Shown piece by piece: positions 8,919 through 39,380 of a stretch of DNA of 64,000 nt. The notes beneath the pieces were generated by a model that did not search any database, was not told where the DNA came from, and worked only from the letters and a program-made list of their open reading frames with translations. Position 1 is the first letter of the stretch. Each line of letters opens with the position of its first letter. The stretch is from Elusimicrobia bacterium GWC2_64_44 (GTDB taxonomy: Bacteria; Elusimicrobiota; Elusimicrobia; Elusimicrobiales; UBA9959). Location of the stretch: contig MGUG01000040.1 in assembly GCA_001799845.1 (NCBI GenBank), positions 5,499-69,498 on the forward strand. Direction: 5' to 3'. The position numbers and the translations under genes were made by a program.

Positions 8919-10321
8919 AAAAGAATATTTTTACGCTCGCGACCACAGGATTTATGATCAACCTTGCGGTTTCAACCGCGCTGGCAGCCCATCCCGAACT
9001 GGCCAAGTTCGGGCAGATAAAGTTCGACGCGCCCGACGCCCCGCGCTACGCGCTGGCCAACGGGCTGGTGGTCTACATAGTGAAGGACAACACCCTGCCG
9101 GTGGTGCACTTCTCCGCCTATATCAAGGCGGGCAGCGCCTACGACCCGGCCGCCAAGATAGGCCTGGCCCAGCTGACGGCCCCGCTGCTGCGCGACGGCG
9201 GCACGGCCAAATACAAGGCCGAAGACATAGACAAGACGCTGGAATACCTCGGCGCCACGCTGGACACCGGCGCGTACACCGAGGAGACGCAGGCCGAAAT
9301 GACCGCGCTGCGCAAAGACCTGGACAAGGCCCTGGACATCTACGCCGACGTGCTGCGCAACCCGGCCTTCGAGGAAGAGAAGGTCAAGATCGCGCGCGAC
9401 GAGGTGCTGGAACTCATCCGCCGCCGCAACGACTCCCCCGCCAAGGCCGCCGGCCGCGAGGCCCGGCGCCGGTTCTTCGGCCCCGCCAACCCTTACGGCT
9501 GGCGCAACGAGGAAGCCACTATCAACGCGATAACCCGCGCCGACCTGGCCGCCTTCCACGCGGCCCATTTCAGGCCCAATAACATGATCCTCGCCGTCAG
9601 CGGCGACTTCACCTCCGACGAGGAAGCCCTGGCGAAGATAAAAGAAAAATTCGGCGACTGGCAGCCGGCCGAGGTTATCAAACCCGCCGTGCCGGCACCG
9701 GACCACCAGGGCGGCCGCCAGATCTACCTGGTGGACAAGGACGTCGCCCAGGCCTCCATCGTCATCGTCCAGAAGGGCGTCAGGCGGACCGACCCGGCCA
9801 ACGACGCGATAACGGTCCTCTCCGATATCCTGGGCGGCGGCTTCCAGTCCCGGCTGTTCGCCGAGGTGCGCACCAAGCGCGGCCTGGCTTACTCGGTGGG
9901 CAGCTACGGCGCCAGCCTGCGGGAGGGCGGCTTCCTGATCACCTCCTGCGGCACCAAGAACGAGACCTACTCGCAGGCGCTCTCCGAGATGCTCAAACAG
10001 CTGGGCCTGGTGGGCTCCGCGCCGGTGACGCCGGAGGAGCTGGAGCGCAGCAAGGGCTCCACTATCAACCCGTTCGTCTTCAAGTTCTCCACGCCGCACA
10101 AGCTGGCGGTGGAGCGGGCCCTGGAGGAATACTACGGCTACGAAAAGGGCCACCTGGACAATTACGTGAAGGCGATCTCCGCCGTGGACGCGGCGGCGGC
10201 GCAGGCGGCCGGCAAGCTGTTCGACCCGTCCAGCGCGGTCATCTACGTCATCGGCAACTCCAAGAAGTTCGATCGTCCGCTGAGCGAGTTCGGCCCGGTA
10301 ACGGAGCTGAAGGAAGATTAG
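8915..10321 (+). CDS. M16 family peptidase-like subunit lacking HxxEH
   Basis: Same fold-level pattern as the upstream gene, but GLAQLTAPLLRDGGT replaces HxxEH. ATGA overlap with the upstream gene. Confidence 0.8.
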   Translation: MKKNIFTLATTGFMINLAVSTALAAHPELAKFGQIKFDAPDAPRYALANGLVVYIVKDNTLPVVHFSAYIKAGSAYDPAAKIGLAQLTAPLLRDGGTAKYKAEDIDKTLEYLGATLDTGAYTEETQAEMTALRKDLDKALDIYADVLRNPAFEEEKVKIARDEVLELIRRRNDSPAKAAGREARRRFFGPANPYGWRNEEATINAITRADLAAFHAAHFRPNNMILAVSGDFTSDEEALAKIKEKFGDWQPAEVIKPAVPAPDHQGGRQIYLVDKDVAQASIVIVQKGVRRTDPANDAITVLSDILGGGFQSRLFAEVRTKRGLAYSVGSYGASLREGGFLITSCGTKNETYSQALSEMLKQLGLVGSAPVTPEELERSKGSTINPFVFKFSTPHKLAVERALEEYYGYEKGHLDNYVKAISAVDAAAAQAAGKLFDPSSAVIYVIGNSKKFDRPLSEFGPVTELKED

Positions 10322-28223: not shown

Positions 28224-30008
28224 TCAGTCCGCGGCAGGGCCCGGCTTGCCCAGGAAGGAGGTCCCTTTCAGCGGCAGGAAGACGCGCGGGTCTTTTTCCT
28301 TGCTGAAGCTGGTCCTGAAATCGTCCATGAAGAAGTTCAGGTTATACGGTTTGAACTTCACGGTCAGCACCCTGACCATCTTGCGGATCAGGTCTTTCTT
28401 GTCGTGGCCCAGCTTGTCGTAGAGGCAGGACAGCAGGTAGACGTGCTCGTTGCCGATGGCCCGGTAAGAGGCCACCGAGTCTATCTTTGCGGCCACGGCC
28501 CTCACGGACTCCACCACCTGCCGGTTCTTCTCCTCCCAGCCCAGCCCGCCGACCTCCGAGAACTTCATGGAATACTGCTCCACGATCCGGTAGAGGGGGT
28601 AGAAGAAATTCATGAACTGCAGCGGCGGGTAGGGCAGCACTTTCACGCCGAATTTTTTCTGCTCGCGGAAGAAGCGGGAATTGGGGTAGAGGTAGAAGGG
28701 GTTGAGGGTGTAGACGTCGACGAACTCCTTGATGTCGTCTATCAGCGCCAGGTTGGCCGCCACGTCCCGCTGCGTCTCGGTGGGGAAGCCGGCTATCAGC
28801 TCGATGTGGTTCCAGATGCCTATCTTATGCGAGTATTCCAGGAACTTGCGCGCCCGCTCAACGGTGATGCCCTTGTTGATGTAGGCCAGCAGGCGGTCAC
28901 TGCCGCTCTCCACGCCGTAGGTCAGCTTGATGGCGCCGGCGGCGCGCATCTTGTCCAGCAGCCGCTCGTCTAGGACCCGCAGGTTGGCGCAGTCGAACCA
29001 TTTAAGGCCCAGCTTGTACTTCACCAGCTTGTCGCAGAGCTCTTCGGCCCGCTTGTAATAATTGTTGAAGGAGGAATTGACGAAGTAAACGGCGGTGACG
29101 CCCTTCTCTTTGAGCGCCTGCAGCTCGTCTACGACCTGGTCCACGGACTTGATATCCGAGGGCAGCTTGTTGTTGTTCTCGCAGAAGGCGCAGGCGCCGG
29201 GGCAGGTGAGCTCGAAGGCGTAAGAGGCGACCAGGTGCCGCTTGTCGTTAGTTACGAGCTTCTTGATGAAAGGGAAATCGGAATTGTACTTGGAGAAGAT
29301 CTCGGAGTCGTAAGCCTTGTACTTCTCCAGGATGCGGTCGTCGTAGCGCGGCCTGGGCGCGTAGGGCCGGCGCCCTTCGAGCGCGGGATAGTTGCGCAGG
29401 CGCGCGCCGCGGCGCACCACGGTGCCGGTGAAGGCGGCCTTCTGCCCGGCCACGTCCTTCATGATCTCCAGCAGGGCCTTCTCCCCCCAGTCGGCGTAGG
29501 CCCCGTAGTCGAAGCAGGGGTAGCGCCGCATCAGGTAGAAGAAAGCCTCTTTGGGCATGCCCCGGTAGCCGATGACGGTTTTGGCCCCGAACCTGTCGCG
29601 GGCCGCGCGCGCGAGCAGGGCGCAGAAATTTATGATCAGCGGCTCGGCCCGGATGTCCACCAGCGTGACGCCCACCAGGTCGGGCCGGCCCAGGTCCAGC
29701 CCGGCCAGGAGCAGGGCGGCCATGCGGTCCAGCTGCGCCTTCAGCTTGGCCGGCGCGCGGCCGTTGACGTAGGACCAGACCGCGTCCCGGTCGTACATCA
29801 GCGCCAGCTGCGCCTTGGAAAATTTGTATTGGAGCCTGTCGAACCACTCTTTTTCGGCGTCCACCTGCGTAGCCACGCTCCCGGCGCCCATCACGGCGTC
29901 GGCCAGCACCGCTATGGTCATGTTGGGGGGCGGGATGGGTTCGGAGATCTTCTGGTCTCCCGGAGGGTAGACCAGCGCCACGCGCAATTTTTTTTGTGTA
30001 GGCTCCAT
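28224..30008 (-). CDS. B12-binding-domain radical SAM protein
   Basis: Start moved to MEPTQKKLRVALVYPP. CPGACAFC (CX3CX2C). B12-like N-terminal domain layout. Confidence 0.8.
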   Translation of the reverse strand: MEPTQKKLRVALVYPPGDQKISEPIPPPNMTIAVLADAVMGAGSVATQVDAEKEWFDRLQYKFSKAQLALMYDRDAVWSYVNGRAPAKLKAQLDRMAALLLAGLDLGRPDLVGVTLVDIRAEPLIINFCALLARAARDRFGAKTVIGYRGMPKEAFFYLMRRYPCFDYGAYADWGEKALLEIMKDVAGQKAAFTGTVVRRGARLRNYPALEGRRPYAPRPRYDDRILEKYKAYDSEIFSKYNSDFPFIKKLVTNDKRHLVASYAFELTCPGACAFCENNNKLPSDIKSVDQVVDELQALKEKGVTAVYFVNSSFNNYYKRAEELCDKLVKYKLGLKWFDCANLRVLDERLLDKMRAAGAIKLTYGVESGSDRLLAYINKGITVERARKFLEYSHKIGIWNHIELIAGFPTETQRDVAANLALIDDIKEFVDVYTLNPFYLYPNSRFFREQKKFGVKVLPYPPLQFMNFFYPLYRIVEQYSMKFSEVGGLGWEEKNRQVVESVRAVAAKIDSVASYRAIGNEHVYLLSCLYDKLGHDKKDLIRKMVRVLTVKFKPYNLNFFMDDFRTSFSKEKDPRVFLPLKGTSFLGKPGPAAD

Positions 30009-30068
30009 AAGCAGGCCGCGGCGCGGCGCTTTTACCGCCGACCCGACTGGTATGATATAATTTAGTAT

Positions 30069-30096
30069 CCCGCCGCGGCAACAGCGCCACGGCGGG
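30069..30096 (+). promoter_or_regulatory. 5' leader hairpin of the U32 operon
   Basis: cccgccg-N14-cggcggg. The 3' arm abuts GGGAGAG, a possible SD. TATAAT at 30056-30061. Confidence 0.35.
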
Positions 30097-30112
30097 AGAG
30101 CGGCCCATTCCA

Positions 30113-31009
30113 ATGCGCATAACCGTAGGCATAAAATCCTTCAAAGAAGCCGAATATTTCCTCAACCGCGGGGCTGACGAGATCTACTTCAGCCTGAAGT
30201 CGGTGCCGGGCCACCGGCAGGCCGCTTTCGCGAGCGAAAAAGAGCTGCTGGACTCGGTGCGGTTGGCGCGCAAACTCCGCAAGAAGAGCCTGCTCGGCAT
30301 GAACGCCGTCTACCCGCGCGAAAAATACCCGGTGCTGCTGCGGCACGCGCGCAAAATGGTGGACAGCGGCATGGACGGGCTCATCGTGCGCGACCCGGCG
30401 CTGCTCGAGTATTTCAACGCCAAGAATTTCCGCCCTTTCTTCGTGGCCAGCATCCTGTGCGCCTGCTTCAATTCCCAGACCATGGCCTTCTACCAGGCGC
30501 TCGGCGTGCGCCGCTTCGCCTTCCACAGCCAGCTGCTGCCGGCGGACCTTAAGCTGATGCTGGCTAACGCCCCCAAGACCGAGGCCGAGGTCTTCCCACC
30601 CTGCATCTTCCTCGCCGCGAACATTGTGCCCTACTGCCTGTGCCCCTACCCGGAGTCCAGGGACCCGGGCGGCGCCAAGCTGCCCGACCACGCCTGCACC
30701 CTGAAGTACAAATGCGGCGGCCAGGATTTCCGCATGCTCGACTCGGACCTCTATTTCCAGGCCGGCATGTTCTACGATTTCCACAAGATGGGCGTGCAGT
30801 GGCTCAAGGTCCCCCGCCAGCAGAACACGCCCAAGCTGATAGCCGATTTCGAGATAACCCGCTACTTGAACGAGCTGCTGGACAAGGGCACTGACCGGAA
30901 AACTTTCTCGGTGGCGGTGGCGGAGCTGGTGAAGCGCGTGGACATGAACAAATATGGAAAAAGCTATCATTTTAAGCCCTTCCCGGCTGCGCCTGCCCGG
31001 GGCGCTTGA
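30113..31009 (+). CDS. U32-family protein, UbiU-like (copy A1)
   Basis: N-terminal TIM-barrel-like ITVGIKSFKEAEYFLNRGADEIYF; Cys cluster PPC-x10-CLC-x17-C; LKVPRQQNTP resembles U32 KIEGRQRS. Confidence 0.65.
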   Translation: MRITVGIKSFKEAEYFLNRGADEIYFSLKSVPGHRQAAFASEKELLDSVRLARKLRKKSLLGMNAVYPREKYPVLLRHARKMVDSGMDGLIVRDPALLEYFNAKNFRPFFVASILCACFNSQTMAFYQALGVRRFAFHSQLLPADLKLMLANAPKTEAEVFPPCIFLAANIVPYCLCPYPESRDPGGAKLPDHACTLKYKCGGQDFRMLDSDLYFQAGMFYDFHKMGVQWLKVPRQQNTPKLIADFEITRYLNELLDKGTDRKTFSVAVAELVKRVDMNKYGKSYHFKPFPAAPARGA

Positions 31010-31772
31010 GCTGATAAACGGCGCCCGGCTCTACCTCGGCGACGAATTCTGCTTTCACAAACAGCCGACCTACGCCGACTTCGAGGCCGCCCGCGAGCTC
31101 ACGGGCAAAGCCCCGGCGCTGGTCAGCACCCTCCTCACTGAAACCGCCCTGCAGGCCTACGCCGCGCTGCTGGCCAAGTGCGCAAAAAAGGCGCCGGGCA
31201 CCGAGCTGGTGGTCAACGACCTGGGCCTGCTGAATTTCATAGACAAGAATTACCGCGGGCGCTTCAGCGTGACGCTGGGCCGCCTGCTCACCTACCTCTT
31301 CGACCCCAAGAACACGCGCGTGCTGGGCTCCAGGTCCGACGAGGGCCTCACGGGCAGGAAGATGAAGCTCTGGGAGAAAAGCCTGGAAGCCACGCCCACG
31401 CCCTATATCAAGCGCTTCCTGAAGCGCTACGCCGTGGAGCGCGTGGAGACCGACAGCGAGCGCATCTTCCGCAAATACGCGCTGAACACGAAAGTTAAGC
31501 TCTCCTTCTACTCGCCCATGCGCCTGATGGCCATCACCAGGTTCTGCCCGTTCCGCGGCGGCATCTCGCTCGAGTGCAAACAGCCCTGCGGCTCGCGCAG
31601 CCTGGAGATCAAGACCCCGCATTTGGACTACCCGCTTTTCTCCAAGGGCAACGCCTACTTCGTCAAGAACCGGCCTATCTCTCACCCGCGGCTCGACCGC
31701 ACGGTCACCGTGCCCTTCGTGAAGAGCTCCGGGCTCAAGGTCCACATCAACGAGGGCTCCCTCCGGGGCTAG
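30954..31772 (+). CDS. U32-family protein, UbiV-like (copy B1)
   Basis: YLGDEFCFHK resembles UbiV YLGEAVCSKR. C-x9-C-x3-C (CPFRGGISLECKQPC). 56-nt overlap with A1. Confidence 0.6.
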   Translation: MEKAIILSPSRLRLPGALELINGARLYLGDEFCFHKQPTYADFEAARELTGKAPALVSTLLTETALQAYAALLAKCAKKAPGTELVVNDLGLLNFIDKNYRGRFSVTLGRLLTYLFDPKNTRVLGSRSDEGLTGRKMKLWEKSLEATPTPYIKRFLKRYAVERVETDSERIFRKYALNTKVKLSFYSPMRLMAITRFCPFRGGISLECKQPCGSRSLEIKTPHLDYPLFSKGNAYFVKNRPISHPRLDRTVTVPFVKSSGLKVHINEGSLRG

Positions 31773-31775
31773 CGC

Positions 31776-32651
31776 ATGCTGATAACCATCGGTATAAAAT
31801 CCGCCGACGAGGCCGAGTATTTCCTGCGCAACGGCGCGGACGAGATCTACTTCGGTCCCGCCGTACCCAGCCACCGCGCCTCCTTCTCGCAGGAGGCGGA
31901 GGTGCTGGGCGCCATAGCGCTGGCCAAAAAAATGGGTAAGCAGAGCCTGCTGGCCCTCAACGAGATCTACTCGCGCGAGCAGTACGATTTCCTGCTCGAC
32001 CACGCGCGGCGCCTGCAGGCGGCCGGCCTGGGCGGCATAGTGGTACGCGACGTGGCCCTGCTGGAGTTCTTCAACAAGCACCGGCTGCGCACCAACTACG
32101 TGGCCAGCATCATGTGCGCCTCGTTCAACGCGCAGGCCATGGAGTTCTACCGGGACCTGGGCGTGAAGCGCTTCACGCTGCACAGCCAGGTCATGCCCGA
32201 GGACGCGGTCAAAATGGTCAAGCTCGGAGAGACCATCATGTTCGTGCCCTGCCTCTTCCTCGAAGAGAACATCGTGCCCTTCTGCTTCTTCACCTACCCG
32301 GGCGGCGAGGGCGCGTCCAAGGGCAAGGTGCGGCCCTGCAAGATCAGGTTCAAGGCCGGCGGCAAAGATTACCGCATGGTGGAATCCAACCTCTATTTCC
32401 AGGCCGGCCTGCTCTACGATTTCCACAAGCTGGGCGTGAAATGGCTGAAGATACCGCGGCAGCTCAATACCGGCAAGCTGGTGGCCGAGTTCGAGATCAC
32501 GCGCTTCCTGAACCTCCTGCTCGAGAAGGGGCTCGACAGGAAAACCTTTATCATCGCGGTGGCTGAGCTGATGACGAGAACGGATTTGAATAAATATGGA
32601 TCGAGCTATCTTATTAAGCCCGGCGCTGCTCTGCGGGCCCCGAGCGCCTGA
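31776..32651 (+). CDS. U32-family protein, UbiU-like (copy A2, paralog of A1)
   Basis: Collinear with A1 along its whole length, roughly half the residues identical by eye; 3-nt gap after B1. Confidence 0.65.
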   Translation: MLITIGIKSADEAEYFLRNGADEIYFGPAVPSHRASFSQEAEVLGAIALAKKMGKQSLLALNEIYSREQYDFLLDHARRLQAAGLGGIVVRDVALLEFFNKHRLRTNYVASIMCASFNAQAMEFYRDLGVKRFTLHSQVMPEDAVKMVKLGETIMFVPCLFLEENIVPFCFFTYPGGEGASKGKVRPCKIRFKAGGKDYRMVESNLYFQAGLLYDFHKLGVKWLKIPRQLNTGKLVAEFEITRFLNLLLEKGLDRKTFIIAVAELMTRTDLNKYGSSYLIKPGAALRAPSA

Positions 32652-33465
32652 GCTGAAAAAAGGCGCCACGGTCTACCTGGGCGACGAATTCTGCATACAC
32701 AAGCAGGCGTCTTTCGCCGACTTCGCCGCCGCGCGGGAGAAGACCGGCAAGAACCCCGTGCTGGTCAGCACCCTGCTGACCGAGCCCGCCTTCGAAAAAT
32801 ACGCCGCGCTGCTGGCCGAGTGCGCAAAAAAAGCCCCGGGGACCGAGATAGTGGTCAACGACGCCGGGCTGCTGCGCTACATAGACAAGAAGTACCGCGG
32901 CCGCTTCAGCGTGACGCTGGGGCGCCTGATGACCTATTTCTTCGACACCAAGCATACCCGGCTGCCGGGCTGCACCCGCCCCCTGGTCTGGTCGGAAGGT
33001 AAAGGCTGCGCCGGCTGCGCCGGGCTGCGCCCCGGCGAGAAGCGCGGCAAGATCTGGGAGACGGAGCTTGACGCCACGCCGCTCGAGTATATCCGGGAAT
33101 TCCTGAAGCGCTACGGCGTGACCAGGGTAGAGACCGACAGTTCCTATATCTTCAAAAAGTACGCGGCGATAAAGGGCGTGAAGCTCTCCTACTACTACCC
33201 GCTGCGCCTGATGGCCATGACCAGGTTCTGCCCTTTCATGGGCGGCATAGCCCAGCGCTGCGGCGCGCCCTGCGCGGACAGCCTGGTGAAGCTGGAGACC
33301 TGCGAGCTGGACTACAAGCTCTACTCCAAGGGCAACGCCTACTTCGCCAAGAACAGGCTTTTAAAGCATCCCCGGCTGGACCGGCTGGTGACGCTGCCGT
33401 CTACGCCGCTGGCCGGCTTCAAGCCGGCGGTCAACAAGTACTCAAGCCCCGACAAGCCGGTCTGA
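32596..33465 (+). CDS. U32-family protein, UbiV-like (copy B2, paralog of B1)
   Basis: YLGDEFCIHK; CPFMGGIAQRCGAPC; the same 56-nt overlap with A2. Confidence 0.6.
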   Translation: MDRAILLSPALLCGPRAPELKKGATVYLGDEFCIHKQASFADFAAAREKTGKNPVLVSTLLTEPAFEKYAALLAECAKKAPGTEIVVNDAGLLRYIDKKYRGRFSVTLGRLMTYFFDTKHTRLPGCTRPLVWSEGKGCAGCAGLRPGEKRGKIWETELDATPLEYIREFLKRYGVTRVETDSSYIFKKYAAIKGVKLSYYYPLRLMAMTRFCPFMGGIAQRCGAPCADSLVKLETCELDYKLYSKGNAYFAKNRLLKHPRLDRLVTLPSTPLAGFKPAVNKYSSPDKPV

Positions 33466-33517
33466 CCGGACCGGCGGAGTTCCAACGATATATTATTGAT
33501 AGAGGCCGGCGGCGGCC

Positions 33518-34495
33518 TCAGGCTTTGTTGCGGTGGTACTGCAGCGCGGCGCCGAACAGCGGGGCCAGGCCCAGCATGTTGATGTCTTCTTTGTATTTGG
33601 AGGCGGCGTAGGCGGCTTCCACCCCTTTCTTCAGGGCGAGCACCCGCCGCACGTCGCCGAACAGGTATTTCACCGAGTCCTCGGAGTGGCTGAAGCAGGC
33701 GCGGTCGAAACCCAGCTTCTTGAAGTTCCTGATAAAAAGCGCGACCTCGTGTATGTTCTCGGGCACTATGGTCATGTGCCCCTTCATCAGCACGCTGCGG
33801 CCCAGGGCCTTGCTGTATTTCCTGACGTTCTTTATCCCGCGCATCACCCGCTCCCAGCTAGACCCGACGTTCACCGTCTCATGGGCCTTTTTGGTCGCTC
33901 CGTTGAGCGAGATGTAGAGGAACAAAGAATGCCTGGCTATCTTGCGGGCCCACTCGTCGGTGATCAGGGTGCCGTTGGAGATGAAGGAAACTTTTTTTCC
34001 CTGCGCGACCGCGTAGTCGAAGAACTCCCGCCCCTCTTTGATGAACAGCGGCTCACCGCCCACCAGCTCGATGCCCTCGAAAGGAGCCAAGTCCAGCTTC
34101 TTCAGCAGCGCCAGGTCCAGCACCTTCATGTTGCGGTGGTCCTGCACGCACATCACGCATTTTATATTGCACGGCTCGCCCAGGCGCACCGTCAGGATCT
34201 TTACGCCCTCGTACGGGGCGGTCAGCGGGCGGGGCGGCGGAGGAGGGAGGGCGGCTTTATGCAGCAGGTGGCAGCGCGCATAACAGCTCAGTGCGCCGTT
34301 AAGGGATTCTTTGCGCATTTTCCGCACCGGGGCCGCGTTCCAGATCTTGCGCAGCGGCGCGTCGTGGATATTGCCGAAGGACTGCGCGCACGCGCAGCAG
34401 CAGGCGTAAACCTTGCCGTGCTGGTCTATGCCTATCTCGTCCCAGAGCTTGGGGCAATAGGTGCTGCCTGGTACCGGTCCTTGCGCGCGCTTCAT
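33518..34495 (-). CDS. radical SAM protein with N-terminal SPASM/twitch-like Cys cluster
   Basis: ATG start MKRAQGP (track start 34513 is TTG). Cys at 14, 32, 33, 34, 36, 71 and 75 with GNI and IWN motifs. CNIKCVMC (CX3CX2C) at residues 109-116. Confidence 0.75.
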   Translation of the reverse strand: MKRAQGPVPGSTYCPKLWDEIGIDQHGKVYACCCACAQSFGNIHDAPLRKIWNAAPVRKMRKESLNGALSCYARCHLLHKAALPPPPPRPLTAPYEGVKILTVRLGEPCNIKCVMCVQDHRNMKVLDLALLKKLDLAPFEGIELVGGEPLFIKEGREFFDYAVAQGKKVSFISNGTLITDEWARKIARHSLFLYISLNGATKKAHETVNVGSSWERVMRGIKNVRKYSKALGRSVLMKGHMTIVPENIHEVALFIRNFKKLGFDRACFSHSEDSVKYLFGDVRRVLALKKGVEAAYAASKYKEDINMLGLAPLFGAALQYHRNKA

Positions 34496-34552
34496 TCGTA
34501 TAAATAATATCAAAAAGCCGGACGGTAGCGGCAGCCTGGCGCCTTTTGGGGG

Positions 34553-34750
34553 TCAGTCGCCGTTGCCGGCGCCGCGGCCCACGGTGTTTACCGTTTGCGT
34601 GATCTTGGCTGAAATCTGGTCGAACAATGCGGGCATGTACCGTTTGAGGGCCACGCCGGCTACCAGGACCACGCCCACCACCACCGCCAGCATCAGCAGG
34701 TACTCCACCGTGTTCTGGCCGGCGCGCTTGCGATAAGATACGGTTTTCAT
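34553..34750 (-). CDS. Flp/Fap-like prepilin-type small protein (65 aa)
   Basis: RKRAG-QNTVEY-LLMLAVVVGVVLVAG fits the Flp G/xxxxEY processing motif plus hydrophobic helix. Perfect AAGGAGG RBS. Confidence 0.6.
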   Translation of the reverse strand: MKTVSYRKRAGQNTVEYLLMLAVVVGVVLVAGVALKRYMPALFDQISAKITQTVNTVGRGAGNGD

Positions 34751-34776
34751 AAAGCCTCCTTATGCTGCTTACATAA

Positions 34777-34804
34777 AGAGACACGGAAACCGCTAAAAAG
34801 TTCC
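34777..34804 (-). promoter_or_regulatory. ECF-type promoter candidate upstream of the Flp-like gene
   Basis: Minus strand reads GGAACTT-N16-TCTCT (spacer tttagcggtttccgtg), directly after the anti-sigma stop codon and about 27 nt upstream of the ATG at 34750. Confidence 0.4.
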
Positions 34805-35197
34805 CTATTTGTTGCCGCTGGAAACGCCAAGGCTGGAAGCCGCGCCGTTTATCATACCCTGGACGCTGGCGAACATGGTGGGCATGTATTTTTTGGCGAC
34901 TATGCCGCTCAGCAAAGCTACGACCAGTGCCGCAAAGGCAAGGGCCAGCGCCAGCGGGACCCGGCTGCGGCGCTCCTGCCCCGCGCGCGCGCGGGCCAGC
35001 GCGCGCCCGGCCAGGCCCGCGGGCGCTTTCACGGCCAGCTCCTCTTTGACGCCGGCGGACAGCGCCTTGAAACTGTCCAGCGTGTCGCGGCATTCCCGGC
35101 AGGCGGCGACATGCGCCGTTATTTCAGCGGCCTGTTCCAGGCCGGCCTGGCCGTCGAAGTAGGCCGAAAGCGCCGCTCTTATCTCGTCGTGCGTCAT
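34805..35197 (-). CDS. anti-sigma factor (zf-HC2 type) with one TM
   Basis: HVAACRECR HxxxCxxC motif; TM LALALAFAALVVALLSGIV; ATGA overlap with the sigma gene. Confidence 0.75.
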   Translation of the reverse strand: MTHDEIRAALSAYFDGQAGLEQAAEITAHVAACRECRDTLDSFKALSAGVKEELAVKAPAGLAGRALARARAGQERRSRVPLALALAFAALVVALLSGIVAKKYMPTMFASVQGMINGAASSLGVSSGNK

Positions 35198-35727
35198 CTG
35201 TCCTCCAGGAATTTGCCCAGCAGGCCCCGCATTTTCTCACGGGCCCGCGACAGCCGGGACCGCACCGTGCCCCCGGGTATGGAAAGCGTATCGGCGATAT
35301 CGGTATAGCTGCGGCCGTCCAGCTCGCGCAGGATGAGTATGGCGCGGTCCTCGGGCGCCAGCGCGGCCAGTGCCCGCTCGAACGCCTCATGGCGCGCGCC
35401 AGCTTCCAGCTGCTGCGCCGGACCGGGCGCGGGATCGGGCGGCTCGCCCAGCTCCCCGTCCTCGTTCTCGGTGAAGCCCTTCAGCCGGCGCCAGAAAGCC
35501 AGCCTGGGCGAGCGCAGCTGGTTCTTCCAGCAGTTCACTGTAATGCGGTACAGCCAGACCCCGGGGTCGGTTTCGCCGCGGAAGGCGGCCAGGCCGCGCA
35601 AAGCTTTGAAGAGCGCCTCTTCGGCCAGGTCTTCGGCCTCGGCCGCGTTGCCGGTGAGGCGCAGCGCCACGGCGTAGACCATGTCCGAGTATCTGGCGAG
35701 CAGTTCTTCAGGGGTTATGGGAGGCAT
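35194..35727 (-). CDS. ECF (group 4) sigma-70 factor
   Basis: Region 2 (VYAVALRLTGNAAEAEDLAEEALFKA...WLYRITVN) and region 4 (SYTDIADTLSIPGGTVRSRLSRAREKM). Confidence 0.85.
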   Translation of the reverse strand: MPPITPEELLARYSDMVYAVALRLTGNAAEAEDLAEEALFKALRGLAAFRGETDPGVWLYRITVNCWKNQLRSPRLAFWRRLKGFTENEDGELGEPPDPAPGPAQQLEAGARHEAFERALAALAPEDRAILILRELDGRSYTDIADTLSIPGGTVRSRLSRAREKMRGLLGKFLEDR

Positions 35728-35801
35728 TCTATCCGCCGTCGGCTATACGGTAATTCTAGCAAGTCTGGCGGCCAGATCAGGAAGTCAGGAAGCGGCCCCC
35801 C

Positions 35802-36479
35802 CTATCCCAGGGAGGCGGCGGCGGCTTTGGCTTCTTCGATGAAGGCGGGGTAGGACTTGGCGTCCACGCTGACGGCGAAGCGGTAAAAGACCAGCCAGCG
35901 GCCGCCGGCCTCGGCGGTGCAGCGCCGCGGCAGCTTGAAGCCCGACGTGCGCGAAGAGGTCCAGAAGGCTTTCACCGCCTCCGCGTCCTTGCCGGAGAGG
36001 TGGTACTTGCCGGAGAACTCCTCAGCCCCGGGGATGTCTATATCCTCCCAGCCGAAGACTCCCGCCAGCTTGTCGAAAATGTGCTCCGGCCGCAGCGTGA
36101 AAGCCGGGAACCTCGGCTCCTTGAACTCGAACAGGGCCGCCGTTAACAGGTACTTGTAGCGCTTGCCGGCCTGGTAGGCATAGAACTGGTAATCGAAGAA
36201 TGTTGCCGCGGCCCCGGAGACGCTGAGACCGGAAATCTGATTGGTCACGGTCGGTTCGGCGCCTTTAGTGAAAAGTTCCAGCCCGGTCTTTTCCAGGTCG
36301 CAAGGCGCGCGCCAGGCGAAGGCGAGGCCCAGGGCGTCGGCCACGCTCTCCACGCTCCGGCTCTTGCGCCACCAGAGAAAAGAGTAGGCCAGCAGCGTCA
36401 GCGCGCCGGCCGCGGCGGGGATGGCCCACAGCGCGGTTTTCACCGCGTTCTCGTCGATATTTGCCAGAGTTTCTATCAT
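35802..36479 (-). CDS. hypothetical membrane-anchored protein
   Basis: N-terminal TM (ALWAIPAAAGALTLLAYSFLWW); no family recognised. Confidence 0.55.
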   Translation of the reverse strand: MIETLANIDENAVKTALWAIPAAAGALTLLAYSFLWWRKSRSVESVADALGLAFAWRAPCDLEKTGLELFTKGAEPTVTNQISGLSVSGAAATFFDYQFYAYQAGKRYKYLLTAALFEFKEPRFPAFTLRPEHIFDKLAGVFGWEDIDIPGAEEFSGKYHLSGKDAEAVKAFWTSSRTSGFKLPRRCTAEAGGRWLVFYRFAVSVDAKSYPAFIEEAKAAAASLG

Positions 36480-36506: not shown

Positions 36507-37394
36507 CTATTTATCGGGGTGGAACTTGTCGTGGGCTTTCTTGATGTCGCCCTTGTCCACGTGGGCGTAGATCTGGGTGGTGTTCAGGCTCGCGTGGCCG
36601 AGCATCTCCTGCACGCTGCGCAGGTCGGCGCCGCCCTGCACCAGGTGGCTCGCGAAGGTGTGGCGGAACAGATGCGGGTGCGGCTTTATCTCCACCCCCG
36701 CGTCCCGGCCGAAGGTCACTATGTCCTTCCACATCTGCACACGGCTGAGCTTCTTGCCCGAGCGGTTGACGAACAGCTCGTCGTCCACGGCCTGCCCGCC
36801 GAACTTCAGTTGCCGCGAGGAGAGATATTCCTTCAGCCGGCCCAGCGCCGCGGCGTTGACCGGCACCAGGCGCTCTTTGGCGCCCTTGCCGAACACGCGC
36901 AGCCAGCCCTGCTGAAAATTCACCGACTCCAGCCGCAGGCCCAGCAGCTCGGACACGCGGATACCGCTGGCGTAGAGCAGTTCCACGGCGGCGGCGGCCC
37001 GCACCTTGGCGAAGGCGTCCCCGGCCGGATAGCTGAGCAGTTTTTCCATGTCCCGGCGGGCCAGGAAGCGCGGCACCTTGCGGGGCAGCCGCGGCGCGCG
37101 GAAGTTGGAGGTGGGGTCTTTCTGGGCTTTGCCCTCCAGCCGCAGGTAGCGGTAGAAGGCCCGCAGGGCCTCGGTCTTCCTGAAGATGGAAGCCGGGCCC
37201 AGGCCCTTGTCTTTTTTCAGGTGCCAGAGGTAGCCCTCTACGAAAGGCGGCTCCGCCAGCGCGGGGTCCGTCTTCCTGGCCTCGCAATAGGCCAGGAAGG
37301 CTTCGGTATCCCCGGCGTAGGCCAGGCAGGTGTTCTTTGCCAGGCCACGCTCCATGCCGAGATGGCGCGAGAAGTCGGCCGCTAGTGGGCGCAT
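36507..37394 (-). CDS. tyrosine recombinase, XerC/XerD family
   Basis: HLFRHTFASHLVQGGADLRSVQEMLGHASLNTTQIYAHV carries the R-H-R-Y catalytic motifs. Start codon abuts the recA stop. Confidence 0.85.
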   Translation of the reverse strand: MRPLAADFSRHLGMERGLAKNTCLAYAGDTEAFLAYCEARKTDPALAEPPFVEGYLWHLKKDKGLGPASIFRKTEALRAFYRYLRLEGKAQKDPTSNFRAPRLPRKVPRFLARRDMEKLLSYPAGDAFAKVRAAAAVELLYASGIRVSELLGLRLESVNFQQGWLRVFGKGAKERLVPVNAAALGRLKEYLSSRQLKFGGQAVDDELFVNRSGKKLSRVQMWKDIVTFGRDAGVEIKPHPHLFRHTFASHLVQGGADLRSVQEMLGHASLNTTQIYAHVDKGDIKKAHDKFHPDK

Positions 37395-38483
<1,089 letters not shown>

Positions 38484-38534
38484 TGTGTTTTTCCTCCGTG
38501 ATCTAAATTCTTCCCTTATAGTCTAGCAGGCCAT

Positions 38535-38554
38535 CCCGACAAGGGCGTGTCGGG
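38535..38554. promoter_or_regulatory. inverted repeat CCCGACA-N6-TGTCGGG overlapping the putative recA -35
   Basis: On the minus strand, TTGTCG-N16-TATAAG lies upstream of the recA RBS. Candidate operator. Confidence 0.3.
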
Positions 38555-38602
38555 AACTTTTCGGCCAGAAAATATTTTTTAAGGCCGCCCGGTGCTTTTG
38601 TT

Positions 38603-38612
38603 ATGTTAACAT
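38603..38612. promoter_or_regulatory. perfect 10-bp palindrome ATGTTAACAT in the recA-lexA intergenic region
   Basis: Seen directly; function unknown. Confidence 0.25.
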
Positions 38613-38723
38613 TTATTTCCCAATTTGCCGAGCTCCTGCCTGTTTAGTATAGATGATTAACGCCCATCTGTCAAGTATTAAGGAGGTATTGACTTTACCG
38701 GTTTAATATATTATCCTTAATAT

Positions 38724-39380
38724 ATGCACCCCATACAAGAGAAGCTGCTTAACCTCTCCAAAGAAACCAACCTGGCCCAGGTCAGCCTGCGCGAAATGGC
38801 CGCCGCCATCGGCCTGCCGGGCGAGTCCCCCCAGAAGATAAAGCACCACCTGCAGCAGCTCGAGAAGAAAGGCTTCTTCACCATAGACCGCTCCCATGGC
38901 CTGATGGAAAAAGCCTCGCTGCTGCCCGGGCTAGCGAGCGGCCTGCTCAAAGAGGCCTCCTCGTTATTCTCCATACCTATAATAGGCACGGCCAACTGCG
39001 GCCCCGCCACGCTTTACGCCGAGCAGAACTTCGAGGGCTTCCTGCGCGTCTCCGGGCGGCTGCTCGGCCGCGCCAGCCCGGCGGGCCTCTACGGCATAAA
39101 GACCAACGGCTCCTCCATGAACCGCGCCGAGATAGCCGGCAAGAAGATAGAGGACGGCGACTATGTGGTGATAGACAGCAATAAGCGCGTGCCCGCCAAC
39201 AACGACATAGTGCTGGCCATCATAGACAACAAGGCCACCATCAAGCGCTTCATTGACGACCGCGCCAACGGCCAGGTCATCCTGAAGGCCGACTCCTCCT
39301 ACGACTACGACCCCATCTACCTGCACCCCGACGACGACTTCCTCATCAACGGCAAAGCCATCGCCGTCATCAAGAAGTAG
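38724..39380 (+). CDS. lexA: LexA-like S24 repressor
   Basis: Winged-helix N-terminus (SPQKIKHHLQQLEKKGFF), GSSMN Ser and ATIKRF Lys dyad. Divergent from recA. Confidence 0.75.
   Translation: MHPIQEKLLNLSKETNLAQVSLREMAAAIGLPGESPQKIKHHLQQLEKKGFFTIDRSHGLMEKASLLPGLASGLLKEASSLFSIPIIGTANCGPATLYAEQNFEGFLRVSGRLLGRASPAGLYGIKTNGSSMNRAEIAGKKIEDGDYVVIDSNKRVPANNDIVLAIIDNKATIKRFIDDRANGQVILKADSSYDYDPIYLHPDDDFLINGKAIAVIKK

What the first reader, a model, noticed from the sequence alone, without database searches (positions are those of the whole stretch)
34553..34804. ECF-type promoter immediately after the anti-sigma stop drives a Flp-like peptide gene
On the minus strand, GGAACTT (34804-34798) is followed by a 16-nt spacer and then TCTCT preceded by CGTG. 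This resembles RpoE-like ECF promoters (GGAACTT-N16-TCnnA, or a CGTC-type -10). It begins directly after the anti-sigma stop codon. A perfect AAGGAGG and the 65-aa ORF follow. The ORF's G-QNTV-EY motif fits the Flp prepilin G/xxxxEY cleavage site. No tad or cpa secretion genes occur in this window. An orphan Flp-like peptide under ECF control, followed after 57 nt by the radical SAM gene, is unusual.
Basis: partly seen in the sequence, partly recalled or inferred. Interest (0 to 1): 0.55.

Follow-up and report, generated by a model that had tools for sequence, protein, structure and literature searches.

The report
Pilin-mimic anti-sigma controls alternative pilin
In Elusimicrobia, a conserved three-gene module (ECF sigma factor, an anti-sigma factor whose membrane and outer part copies the cell's own major Tad/Flp pilin, and a variant pilin gene behind an ECF-type promoter) looks like an undescribed way of linking pilus status to expression of an alternative pilin.

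Summary
GGAACTT-N16-TCTCT, AAGGAGG and a 65-aa ORF with G/QNTVEY lie directly after the anti-sigma stop codon. One match in a window is not significant (0.14 expected), but the motif is conserved in all 27 distinct orthologous loci and absent from 61 tad-locus pilin upstream regions. In three divergent lineages it also precedes the sigma gene.

The peptide is a paralogue of the Elusimicrobia major Flp/Tad pilin. The canonical pilin heads complete tad loci. The variant always follows an ECF sigma and a zf-HC2 anti-sigma, in otherwise unrelated contexts. Six MAGs carry both kinds of locus. The radical SAM neighbour is incidental (window and one syntenic relative only).

1. The anti-sigma C-terminus (TM helix plus 29-aa tail) copies the mature major pilin and tracks the lineage's own pilin (up to 27/29 residues identical, with synonymous differences).
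2. The promoter spacer and -10 block are complementary to the SD/AUG region. Read-through mRNA would therefore be translationally silent, while ECF-initiated mRNA would not.

All evidence is computational. The signal that the anti-sigma senses is inferred, not shown. Verdict: new variant of a known kind, interest about 0.68.

The parts
35194..35727 (-). ECF (group IV) sigma factor gene, 177 aa
   Evidence: Pfam Sigma70_r2 and Sigma70_r4_2 above cut-off; NCBIfam TIGR02937 93.8 bits against a cut-off of 42.9, with best similarity to SigE/RpoE models but below their cut-offs. Its stop overlaps the anti-sigma start (ATGA).
35753..35761 (-). TGCTAGAAT box about 26 nt upstream of the sigma ATG; resembles an extended -10 of a housekeeping promoter
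   Evidence: Conserved as TGCTA(G/A)AAT in the window, L001 and L007; L009 has TTGCTA-N17-CATAAT. There is no GAAC...GTCT motif upstream of sigma in this clade. Function is inferred from sequence only.
34988..35197 (-). Anti-sigma factor, cytoplasmic ZAS (zf-HC2) anti-sigma domain, residues 1-70
   Evidence: Pfam zf-HC2 35.8 bits against a cut-off of 22.2. H29, C33 and C36 (HxxxCxxC) are invariant in 19 homologues.
34808..34963 (-). Anti-sigma factor C-terminal module, residues about 79-130: a TM helix plus a 29-aa extracytoplasmic tail that copies the mature major Flp pilin (…KKYMPTMFASVQGMINGAASSLGVSSGNK)
   Evidence: BLASTP against the neighbouring peptide gives E 2e-5. The canonical-pilin HMM hits residues 93-129 with E 8.6e-13 in a database of 8,725 ORFs, better than the variant-pilin HMM at 1.5e-9. 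Collinear alignment; tail identities.
34798..34804 (-). -35 element GGAACTT of the ECF-type promoter
   Evidence: G-G-A-A-C-T-T-T-T is nearly invariant in 22 of 22 scored loci. It stays at a fixed distance from the ATG where the stop codon has moved (L004, L009, L012, L014, L016).
34777..34784 (-). -10 element GTGTCTCT (core GTCT/TCTCT); spacing from GAAC to GTCT is 17 nt
   Evidence: GTCT is invariant in 25/25 loci; spacing is 17 nt in 17 loci and 18 nt in 7. Divergent loci read GTGTCTGA, matching the RpoE/AlgU-type TCTGA.
34740..34793 (-). Fold-back hairpin in read-through RNA. The 5' arm is the promoter spacer plus the -10 block (GCGGUUU, CGU, GUCUCUUUAUGU; 34793-34771). The loop is 34770-34766, where the TSS is predicted. 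The 3' arm is the SD, AUG and codons 2-4 (GCAUAAGGAGGC, AUG, AAACCGU; 34765-34740).
   Evidence: RNAalifold. MFE -29.7 kcal/mol, z -3.15, and z -1.9 to -3.9 in seven other clade loci. RNA starting after the -10 folds at only -4 kcal/mol, z 0.22. Cognate versus non-cognate outer-stem test: p 6e-4, or 5e-3 after de-replication. Different sequence solutions with the same architecture occur in L085, L042, L056, L149 and L088.
34755..34761 (-). Shine-Dalgarno AAGGAGG
   Evidence: CATAAGGAGGC is invariant in the clade.
34553..34750 (-). Variant Flp/Tad-type prepilin gene, 65 aa. Leader M1-G11 is 34750-34718; predicted mature pilin Q12-D65 is 34717-34556.
   Evidence: G11, Q12, N13, T14, V15, E16 and Y17 are invariant. 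The family has 561 clusters, named 'Flp pilus assembly pilin' or 'class III signal peptide-containing protein'. It is 60-65% identical to pilins that head tad loci. Pfam Flp1_like and Class_IIIsignal hits are below cut-off.

Best explanation
This is a conserved three-gene regulatory module of Elusimicrobia.

(1) An ECF sigma factor and its zf-HC2 anti-sigma are co-transcribed. In the window's clade the likely promoter is a housekeeping-type one.

(2) The anti-sigma is a chimera. It has a cytoplasmic sigma-binding ZAS domain. That domain is anchored in the membrane by a copy of the cell's own major Tad/Flp pilin: the C-terminal half of the TM helix plus the 29-residue exposed tail, in the same N-in/C-out topology. 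It lacks the G/xxxxEY processing and assembly motif.

(3) Directly after the anti-sigma stop codon lies an RpoE-like ECF promoter (GGAACTT-N16-TCTCT). It drives a paralogous prepilin that keeps the complete processing and assembly N-terminus but has a different, charged tail.

(4) The promoter spacer and the -10 block double as the 5' arm of a hairpin that sequesters the SD and AUG. Transcripts reading through from the sigma operon would therefore be translationally silent. Transcripts started by the ECF sigma begin in the hairpin loop and would be translatable.

Inferred logic: the pilin-mimic module lets the anti-sigma be 'read' by whatever reads the major pilin in the membrane or periplasm. 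That could be the pilin pool itself, the Tad assembly platform, or a pilin-directed protease. When that state changes, the sigma is released and the cell makes a pilin with a different surface tail, which the same Tad machine can assemble.

What is shown by sequence and comparison: gene identities, synteny, promoter conservation, the pilin mimicry and its lineage tracking, and the hairpin potential. What is inferred: which sigma uses the promoter, the TSS, the nature of the signal, and the fate of the variant pilin.
For: Synteny: every variant pilin lies 54-88 nt downstream of the anti-sigma and sigma, in otherwise unrelated contexts. Canonical pilins head TadE-RcpC-secretin-CpaE/F-TadB-TadC loci. 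Six MAGs have both kinds of locus.

Promoter: 27/27 distinct loci have the motif against 0/61 tad-locus pilin upstream regions. The motif is duplicated upstream of sigma in L042, L056 and L149. Rfam finds nothing.

Mimicry: the canonical-pilin HMM hits all anti-sigma C-termini with E 2e-20 to 3e-7, always better than the variant-pilin HMM. Same-genome tail identity of anti-sigma versus tad pilin is 18-27 of 29, against 12-15 of 29 for the adjacent variant. Cross-lineage identity is only 3-6 of 29, while own-lineage identity reaches 27/29 with 8 of 25 conserved codons differing synonymously. That pattern points to protein-level selection rather than gene conversion. At least 36 of the 150 best 50%-identity representatives carry the pilin tail.

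Hairpin.

Precedent for membrane sensors reading the pilin pool: PleC/PilA in Caulobacter and PilS/PilA in Pseudomonas (PMC7196804). The Tad pilin C-terminus is the outward-facing part of the filament and a phage contact (PMC11067988).
Against: There are no transcript, TSS or protein data; everything comes from uncultivated MAGs. In the window's clade the sigma gene has no copy of the motif, so assigning the promoter to this sigma rests on synteny and on the divergent clades. The inner hairpin arms are invariant in most loci, so they give no covariation, and they show 1-2 uncompensated changes in L004, L012, L014 and L016. The outer stem is weak in 5 of 21 loci, and its permutation p-value is inflated by relatedness. 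The anti-sigma lacks Glu5/Tyr6 in the window's clade, so co-assembly into the pilus is unlikely there. A tad locus in the window's own genome could not be demonstrated. No prepilin peptidase (A24) gene was seen in the tad loci examined. The AF2 model of the anti-sigma has low confidence (pLDDT 59.7).
Confidence: 0.6

Rival explanations
1. There is no internal promoter. The peptide is simply the third gene of the sigma/anti-sigma operon, and the conserved intergenic block is an RNA element: a translational repressor hairpin opened by temperature, a protein or ribosome coupling. In this reading GGAAC/GTCT are conserved for RNA reasons.
For: The hairpin is strong and clade-wide, with some covariation. 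The gap is only 54 nt and holds no terminator. The window's clade has no autoregulatory copy of the motif. GGGAAC can pair weakly with GUUUCC.
Against: GGAAC-TTTT lies outside the conserved hairpin yet is invariant. The two blocks match the canonical ECF -35/-10 with the canonical 16-17-nt spacing in 27/27 loci. In L042, L056 and L149 the same two blocks recur upstream of the sigma gene, where spacers differ and there is no such hairpin context. The GGGAAC/GUUUCC pairing is broken in L004 and shows no covariation. The hairpin and the promoter are not mutually exclusive: the hairpin's loop coincides with the expected TSS.
Confidence: 0.15
2. The 65-aa peptide is a RiPP precursor matured by the downstream radical SAM/SPASM enzyme, and the ECF system regulates a natural-product cluster.
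For: The radical SAM/SPASM gene lies 57 nt downstream on the same strand, with no convincing terminator between them. It has weak NCBIfam similarity to peptide maturases.
Against: The radical SAM gene follows the peptide only in the window and in its syntenic close relative L007. In all other contexts the downstream gene differs, and L001, L012 and L016 have strong terminators right after the peptide gene. The peptide's most conserved part is the prepilin motif and TM helix shared with bona fide tad-locus pilins. The radical SAM gene instead belongs with the convergent U32-like and radical SAM cluster that is conserved with it in L007.
Confidence: 0.04
3. The pilin-like C-terminus of the anti-sigma is merely a membrane anchor acquired by an ancient fusion with a pilin gene. 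It has no sensing role, and the sigma responds to some unrelated envelope or redox signal through the ZAS domain.
For: ZAS domains can sense redox on their own (established knowledge of RsrA-type anti-sigmas). TM helices are generic. In the window's clade the N-terminal half of the TM has diverged from the pilin.
Against: A mere anchor would not keep a 29-residue extracytoplasmic tail 62-93% identical to the genome's own major pilin, with synonymous divergence, across lineages whose pilin tails differ almost completely (27/29 own against 3-6/29 cross). The tail is the best-conserved part of the anti-sigma family outside the zinc motif (invariant Q113, G114, M115, I116, N117).
Confidence: 0.15
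4. The promoter-like motif is a chance match with no function.
For: A single match in the window against 0.14 expected; 14% of shuffles have at least one.
Against: The motif is conserved in 27 of 27 orthologous loci at down to about 40% anti-sigma identity, at fixed spacing and fixed distance from the ATG. It is absent from 61 paralogue upstream regions.
Confidence: 0.02

Closest known systems
RpoE/RseA, AlgU/MucA and SigW/RsiW-type ECF sigma plus single-pass ZAS or class I anti-sigma pairs
   Same: A two-domain sigma (sigma2 + sigma4); a co-transcribed, overlapping anti-sigma gene with HxxxCxxC; one TM segment; a target promoter of the GGAACTT-N16-TCnnA type.
   Different: The extracytoplasmic/TM sensor part is a copy of a structural pilin rather than an RseB-, PDZ- or protease-recognised domain. 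The only conserved target seen is a pilin paralogue placed after the anti-sigma gene. The window's clade has no autoregulatory promoter. The promoter is embedded in a fold-back RNA structure.
Pilin-pool sensing by membrane histidine kinases (P. aeruginosa PilS-PilA; Caulobacter PleC-PilA, a Tad/type IVc pilin)
   Same: The state of the membrane pilin reservoir is converted into gene regulation through contacts in or near the membrane (PMC7196804; Kilmury & Burrows 2016, cited).
   Different: Those sensors are two-component kinases with unrelated TM domains that bind the pilin N-terminal helix. Here the sensor is an anti-sigma that itself looks like the pilin, mainly in its C-terminal tail, and the output is an ECF sigma. 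Direct interaction is untested here.
FlgM/sigma-28 flagellar checkpoint
   Same: An anti-sigma whose fate could be coupled to the filament-assembly machine, releasing a sigma that transcribes a filament subunit gene.
   Different: FlgM is a soluble protein exported through the flagellar type III apparatus. Here the anti-sigma is membrane-anchored, lacks the pilin assembly motif in the window's clade, and extraction or cleavage is purely hypothetical. The resemblance comes from my own knowledge and was not tested.
IS10/Tn10 'fold-back inhibition' of read-through transcripts (Davis, Simons & Kleckner 1985; cited from my own knowledge, not found in the paper library)
   Same: Sequence upstream of the element's own TSS is complementary to the ribosome-binding site, so only transcripts started at the native promoter are translated.
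   Different: Here it would insulate a regulated gene from its own upstream regulator operon, and the 5' arm is the promoter's spacer and -10 element. It is untested experimentally.
Flp/Tad (type IVc) pilins such as A. actinomycetemcomitans Flp1 and Caulobacter PilA
   Same: A 50-80-aa prepilin, the G/xxxxEY motif, a hydrophobic helix, and a short C-terminal tail that faces outward in the filament (PMC11067988). Close paralogues head complete tad loci.
   Different: This copy lies outside any tad locus and is under ECF control. It gives no Pfam Flp_Fap hit, and no PDB relative is detectable by sequence.

Membership tests
ECF (group IV) sigma-70 factors | Only sigma2 and sigma4 domains, about 170-200 aa | tested here: met
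   Pfam r2 (residues 9-73) and r4_2 (114-166) are above cut-off; TIGR02937 scores 93.8 against a cut-off of 42.9.
ECF (group IV) sigma-70 factors | Assignment to a defined ECF group (ECF Hub classification) | not testable with these tools
   No ECF-group HMM library was available. The SigE/RpoE equivalog models are all below their cut-offs. The re-classification paper does not mention pilins or Elusimicrobia.
ZAS / class I anti-sigma factors | N-terminal anti-sigma domain with HxxxCxxC, encoded next to the sigma gene | tested here: met
   zf-HC2 scores 35.8 bits against a cut-off of 22.2. H29, C33 and C36 are invariant. The gene overlaps the sigma stop codon.
ZAS / class I anti-sigma factors | Binds and inhibits its cognate sigma | not testable with these tools
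   This requires biochemistry or genetics. The AF2 monomer is low confidence.
RpoE/AlgU-type ECF promoter | -35 GGAAC(TT), a 16-17-nt spacer, and a -10 of the TCnnA / (C)GTC type | tested here: met
   The window has GGAACTT-N16-TCTCT. Divergent loci have GAACCT-N17-TCTGA. Consensus and spacing come from 25 loci.
RpoE/AlgU-type ECF promoter | A transcription start 5-8 nt downstream that depends on the sigma | not testable with these tools
   No transcript data are available.
Flp/Tad (type IVc) prepilins | Short prepilin with G/xxxxEY followed by a hydrophobic helix | tested here: met
   RAG/QNTVEYLLMLAVVVGVVLVAG. G11-Y17 are invariant in 20 family members.
Flp/Tad (type IVc) prepilins | Match to curated family models (Pfam Flp_Fap PF04964, Flp1_like PF16982, Class_IIIsignal PF04021) | tested here: inconclusive
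   There is no PF04964 hit. PF16982 scores 19.2 against a cut-off of 33.5, and PF04021 scores 18.7 against 23.7. Many relatives have precomputed hits to both. NCBIfam gives no hit.
Flp/Tad (type IVc) prepilins | Encoded with the tad/cpa assembly genes | tested here: not met
   No tad genes are in the window, and orthologues are never in a tad locus. The 60-65%-identical paralogues are. I therefore file it as a paralogue of the Tad pilin, not as the structural pilin of a locus.
Flp/Tad (type IVc) prepilins | Cleaved by a TadV/CpaA prepilin peptidase and assembled into a pilus | not testable with these tools
   No A24 peptidase gene was seen in the tad loci inspected. Processing is inferred from the motif.
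RiPP precursor plus radical SAM/SPASM maturase pair | Conserved co-occurrence of precursor and maturase | tested here: not met
   The radical SAM gene is adjacent only in the window and in syntenic L007. It is absent in all other contexts, and three loci have terminators after the peptide gene.
Fold-back (read-through) translational insulation | A 5' arm upstream of the gene's own TSS that is complementary to its SD/AUG, with a structure more stable than chance | tested here: met
   z is -1.9 to -3.9 in 8 clade loci. RNA starting after the -10 is unstructured. Analogous but different arms occur in L085, L042, L056, L149 and L088. Cognate versus non-cognate test gives p 6e-4 and 5e-3.
Fold-back (read-through) translational insulation | Differential translation of the long and short transcripts | not testable with these tools
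   This needs reporter fusions and TSS mapping.

The most novel reading that the evidence does not exclude
The anti-sigma is a molecular decoy of the major Tad pilin. Whatever consumes or attacks the major pilin's membrane-proximal tail would also remove the anti-sigma. Candidates are extraction by the Tad platform during assembly, a pilin-directed protease, or depletion or overload of the pilin pool. Removal releases the sigma and switches the pilus to a subunit with a different surface tail. This would be the first sigma/anti-sigma checkpoint for a type IV filament, an analogue of FlgM/sigma-28. It would also be the first case of a structural subunit being copied into a signalling protein as its sensor domain, combined with a promoter that doubles as an anti-SD to silence read-through.
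Probability: 0.3. Interest if true: 0.85.

Novelty: new variant of a known kind. Interest (0 to 1): 0.68.

Why it matters
ECF sigma/anti-sigma pairs are among the commonest bacterial signalling devices, yet for most of them the sensed signal is unknown. Here the sensor domain names its own ligand class: it is a copy of the cell's major pilin, kept nearly identical to that pilin by selection. That makes the question 'what does this anti-sigma sense?' directly testable through tail swaps and through two-hybrid assays with the pilin and Tad components.

It also suggests a regulated switch between two pilins that share an assembly core but differ in the surface-exposed tail, which in Tad pili is the phage- and surface-contacting part. 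Such a switch would be relevant to adhesion and phage escape in a poorly known phylum.

The promoter-embedded anti-SD is a compact design for insulating a regulated gene from its upstream regulator operon, and could be reused in synthetic ECF circuits.

Tried and rejected
- **RiPP / radical SAM link:** rejected, because the adjacency is not conserved.
- **Terminator-like hit GGGAAC...GUUUCC:** rejected. It has no proper U-tract context, is broken in L004, shows no covariation, and is itself the -35 region.
- **Known RNA family:** Rfam finds nothing at E <= 1 over 33400-36000.
- **Prepilin-peptidase cleavage of the anti-sigma at 'RAG/Q':** rejected. The Gly is present in only 3 of 7 close homologues, and EY is absent in this clade.
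- **Recent gene conversion as the cause of the anti-sigma/pilin tail identity:** rejected. There are 8-10 synonymous codon differences among 24-25 conserved codons.
- **Autoregulation in the window's clade:** no ECF motif lies upstream of sigma. The two other relaxed matches in the window (7715-7738 and 39026-39051) lie inside ORFs and are taken as chance.
- **Structure route:** the AF2 model of the anti-sigma has pLDDT 59.7, too poor for a fold search. The pilin profile has no PDB sequence relatives; the only hits are spurious TM-helix matches to PsbY.
- **A tad locus in the window's own genome (GWC2_64_44):** the look-ups did not resolve this.
- **Fixed-column covariation counting on A5:** abandoned because the outer stem shifts register between loci. 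It was replaced by an alignment-free duplex test.
- **Literature:** no paper was found that links an anti-sigma to a pilin domain or an ECF group to Flp pilins.
Full report
**1. Observation**

On the minus strand the anti-sigma ORF ends with TAG at 34807-34805. It is followed at once by GGAACTT (34804-34798), a 16-nt spacer, and TCTCT (34781-34777, preceded by CGTG). Next come AAGGAGG (34761-34755) and an ATG at 34750 that opens a 65-aa ORF ending at 34553.

Pfam identifies the upstream genes as an ECF-type sigma (Sigma70_r2 + r4_2) and a zf-HC2 anti-sigma. It identifies the downstream gene as a radical SAM enzyme with an N-terminal SPASM domain. The pattern occurs once in the window against 0.14 expected by chance, which is not significant on its own. 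No sigma-70-type promoter or convincing terminator lies in the gap.

**2. What the peptide is**

The window comes from Elusimicrobia bacterium GWC2_64_44. The peptide belongs to a family of 561 clusters, almost all from Elusimicrobia, that sources name 'Flp pilus assembly pilin Flp' or 'class III signal peptide-containing protein'. G-QNTVEY and the following hydrophobic helix are invariant. The family splits into two groups.

- The majority have the tail …KKYMPTLFSSIQGMINGAASTLGASGGNN.
- A 64-65-aa minority, which includes the window's peptide, have RAGQNTVEY…KRYMP.LFDQVS.KI……GRG.GN.D.

I scanned GTDB genomes with the family alignment, which returned 80 loci, and classified them. 63 pilin genes sit directly upstream of TadE-RcpC-secretin-T2SSE-T2SSF; fuller views show pilin-TadE-RcpC-secretin-CpaE/CpaF fusion-TadB-TadC-TPR. 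By contrast, every variant pilin lies 54-88 nt downstream of a zf-HC2 anti-sigma and an ECF sigma.

The flanks of these triads are unrelated to one another. They include Peptidase_M54, PAP2, integrase, Rce1-like, SDF transporter and others. Six MAGs contain both a triad and a tad locus: L011/L020, L010/L047, L012/L024, L014/L033, L016/L022 and L150/L152.

The peptide is therefore a regulated paralogue of the major Tad pilin. It is not an isolated curiosity and not the structural gene of a tad locus. The window holds no tad genes. Whether its genome has a tad locus elsewhere could not be established.

**3. The promoter**

The alignment of the anti-sigma/peptide intergenic regions shows classic footprinting.

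- GGAAC-TTTT and (C)GTGTCTC are invariant.
- The spacer centre and the stretch before the SD vary.
- In L004, L009, L012, L014 and L016 the anti-sigma stop codon lies 8-14 nt further upstream, while the motif keeps its distance from the ATG.

The divergent triads L042, L056 and L085 read GAACCTTT…GTGTCTGA, a textbook GAACTT-N16/17-TCTGA. L149, L088 and L104 conform too. Over 25 scored promoters GTCT is invariant, and the GAAC-to-GTCT distance is 17 nt in 17 loci and 18 nt in 7.

None of 61 distinct upstream regions of tad-locus pilins has the motif; many carry TATAAT-like boxes instead.

In L042, L056 and L149 a second copy (GAGAAC-N17/18-GTC[T/C]) lies immediately upstream of the sigma start codon. 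This is the usual ECF autoregulation, and it ties the motif to this sigma. In the window's clade the sigma gene instead has a conserved TGCTA(G/A)AAT box. Rfam finds no known RNA in the region.

**4. The anti-sigma is a pilin mimic**

The anti-sigma C-terminus resembles the neighbouring peptide (BLASTP E 2e-5) and aligns collinearly with the mature pilin in all loci. It is closer still to the canonical pilin.

A profile built from tad-locus mature pilins hits every anti-sigma C-terminus with E 1.9e-20 to 2.8e-7 in a database of 8,725 ORFs, always better than the variant-pilin profile. In same-genome comparisons the 29-residue tail is 18-27/29 identical to the tad-locus pilin, against 12-15/29 for the adjacent variant.

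The most telling case is MAG GCA_003505215.1, whose pilins have a quite different tail type.

| Protein | Tail |
|---|---|
| Tad-locus pilin P0293 | GKMFKPQISQVFNQIMAMVSGAAQSVGSGN |
| Anti-sigma P0152 | GKLFKPQISQVFNQVMAMVSGAAQSVGSGN |

These are 27/29 identical. Identity to the other lineage's pilins is only 3-6/29. Eight of 25 conserved codons differ synonymously. The match is therefore maintained by selection on the protein, not by recent gene conversion.

Some divergent anti-sigmas even retain E-Y or E-W at the start of the TM helix (L056 and P0163: LEYV; L042: LEW). The G/xxxxEY motif as a whole is absent, and the Gly is not conserved.

An exhaustive phmmer search shows the architecture is widespread. 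At least 36 of the best 150 representatives (clusters at 50% identity) carry the pilin-type tail. A few of these have extra C-terminal domains or a second TM segment. Databases annotate these proteins only as 'zf-HC2 domain-containing', 'RsiW' or 'hypothetical'.

**5. A promoter-embedded fold-back hairpin**

RNAalifold showed that GUCUCUUUAUG, which contains the -10 element, is complementary to CAUAAGGAGGC, which contains the SD. In the read-through context each clade member folds into a two-part hairpin.

- **Inner stem:** the -10 block pairs with the SD.
- **Middle:** CGU pairs with AUG.
- **Outer stem:** the spacer pairs with codons 2-4.

The window folds at -29.7 kcal/mol with z -3.15, and seven other loci give z -1.9 to -3.9. 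An RNA starting just after the -10 is essentially unstructured (-4 kcal/mol, z 0.22).

The outer stem uses different sequences in different loci:

| Locus | Spacer arm | Coding arm |
|---|---|---|
| window | GCGGUUU | AAACCGU |
| L004 | AAGGGAUUUCA | UGAAAUCCCUU |
| L008 | AAACGGUU | ACCGUUU |
| L112 | UCCGGAU | AUUCCGG |
| L104 | CGGUUUUCC | GGAAACCG |

An alignment-free test shows that cognate spacer/start-codon duplexes are more stable than non-cognate ones: -8.39 against -7.02 kcal/mol, p = 12/20000, and 104/20000 after de-replication. Five loci have weak outer stems. The inner arms show a few uncompensated changes.

Divergent lineages reach the same architecture with other sequences.

- L085: GUGUCUGUAGGGC pairs with GCCCUAUGGAUAU.
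- L042: the spacer CCUCCC pairs with the SD GGGAGG.
- L149: the spacer GCGUCUUCCUG pairs with CAGGAGGCGC.
- L088: the spacer contains CCUCC.

In every case the 5' arm lies at or upstream of the -10. A transcript started by the ECF sigma would therefore lack that arm. The simplest reading is insulation: read-through from the sigma/anti-sigma operon cannot be translated into pilin, and only ECF-initiated mRNA can. This parallels IS10 fold-back inhibition (cited from my own knowledge; not found in the library).

**6. The radical SAM gene**

The radical SAM gene follows the peptide only in the window and in L007, an 80%-identical peptide locus with full synteny that includes the U32-like pairs. 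Elsewhere the downstream gene differs. L001, L012 and L016 have strong intrinsic terminators right after the peptide gene, while the window has none that is convincing. Co-transcription in this genome cannot be excluded, but a functional precursor/maturase relationship is not supported.

**7. Mechanism and comparison**

*Supported by sequence and comparison:* the gene identities; the obligate triad; the ECF-type promoter; the pilin mimicry and its lineage tracking; and the potential for fold-back.

*Inferred:*
- that this sigma uses the promoter;
- that the TSS lies in the hairpin loop;
- that the mimic domain senses the state of the major pilin or the Tad machine;
- that the variant pilin is processed and assembled by the same Tad system. 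It keeps the whole processing/assembly N-terminus but has a charged tail.

There is precedent for sensors reading the membrane pilin reservoir. PleC senses PilA in Caulobacter, which has a Tad pilus, and PilS senses PilA in Pseudomonas (PMC7196804). In Tad pili the C-terminal end of the pilin points outward and contacts a phage (PMC11067988). A tail switch would therefore change the pilus surface.

I found no description of an anti-sigma with a pilin-derived sensor, nor of an ECF group linked to Flp pilins.

**8. Verdict**

'Orphan' and the radical SAM emphasis need correcting.
- The real interest lies in the pilin-mimic anti-sigma and the promoter/anti-SD design.
- Novelty: a new variant of known kinds (ECF/anti-sigma signalling, pilin-pool sensing, fold-back insulation).
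- Confidence: about 0.85-0.9 for the promoter and pilin paralogue; about 0.6 for the module as described, including insulation; about 0.3-0.5 for any specific sensing mechanism.

Noticed in passing
window 33518-34513 (-), with 28224-33465: The radical SAM protein has its SPASM/twitch domain at the N-terminus (residues 20-81) and the CxxxCxxC core after it. Its best NCBIfam match is the 'N_Twi_rSAM' subfamily, below cut-off. It lies convergent to two tandem pairs of a U32-peptidase-like gene plus an unknown gene (30113-33465, +), and next to a 629-aa radical SAM gene (28224-30113, -). The whole block is syntenic in L007. Its function is unknown, and it is not linked to the pilin module elsewhere.
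   Followed up: partly
L008 2855-3640; L149/L150 2732-3460: An Rce1-like (CPBP/CAAX-type) intramembrane protease gene lies directly upstream of the sigma gene in two distantly related triads (anti-sigmas about 40% identical). It is a candidate protease for the anti-sigma. It is absent from that position in the window.
   Followed up: no
L094-L103 about 8755-8970; L005 5756-5986: A conserved 57-81-aa gene with no Pfam hit sits immediately upstream of the canonical pilin in the tad loci. Its product ends …GG.VI..MYKE.PW. It may be a second small Tad component or pilin-like protein.
   Followed up: no
L094-L103 (tad loci), e.g. L094 11433-13649: In Elusimicrobia tad loci CpaE/TadZ-like (CbiA) and CpaF/TadA (T2SSE) are fused into one protein of about 738 aa. 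No A24 prepilin peptidase gene was seen within 9 kb on either side. A GGDEF protein and large CHU_C/FlgD_ig-like proteins lie upstream.
   Followed up: no
P0176, P0177, P0181 (317-353 aa); P0179, P0196 (164-166 aa): Some ZAS anti-sigmas with the pilin-type TM and tail continue into a long Ala/Pro-rich region plus a C-terminal domain, or into a second TM segment ending in RRRR. These are architectural variants of the same sensor idea.
   Followed up: no
L068 9995-11590; L071 9857-10561; L080 9686-10213; L069 3626-4129: Longer ORFs (167-531 aa) contain a full pilin-profile match. L068 has the match at its N-terminus, followed by about 470 further residues. Some of these may be over-extended ORF calls, while others could be pilin fusions.
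   Followed up: no
L060, L061, L064, L081, L083, L084: Further Flp-like paralogues are linked to neither a tad locus nor a sigma/anti-sigma within the fetched flanks. Their tails read …WGQIQAKIGGAADALTASEGGK or …IPQLFSQIQALIGNAAQTLGSPTR. The pilin family has more regulated or orphan copies than the two classes studied here.
   Followed up: no
window 35775-35795 (-): A direct repeat CTTCCTGACTTCCTGA lies between the upstream gene's stop codon and the TGCTAGAAT box of the sigma gene. L007 has CTTCCTATCTTCCTAA at the same place. It may be an operator for regulating the sigma operon.
   Followed up: no
window 36507-39380: A XerD-like recombinase gene (36507-37394, -) and recA (37395-38483, -) lie upstream of the module, with a divergent LexA-like gene (38724-39380, +). 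L007 also has the integrase directly upstream of sigma. The XerD-like and LexA-like names were judged from the ORF translations (only L007's integrase has a Pfam hit); these looked like ordinary housekeeping genes.
   Followed up: no
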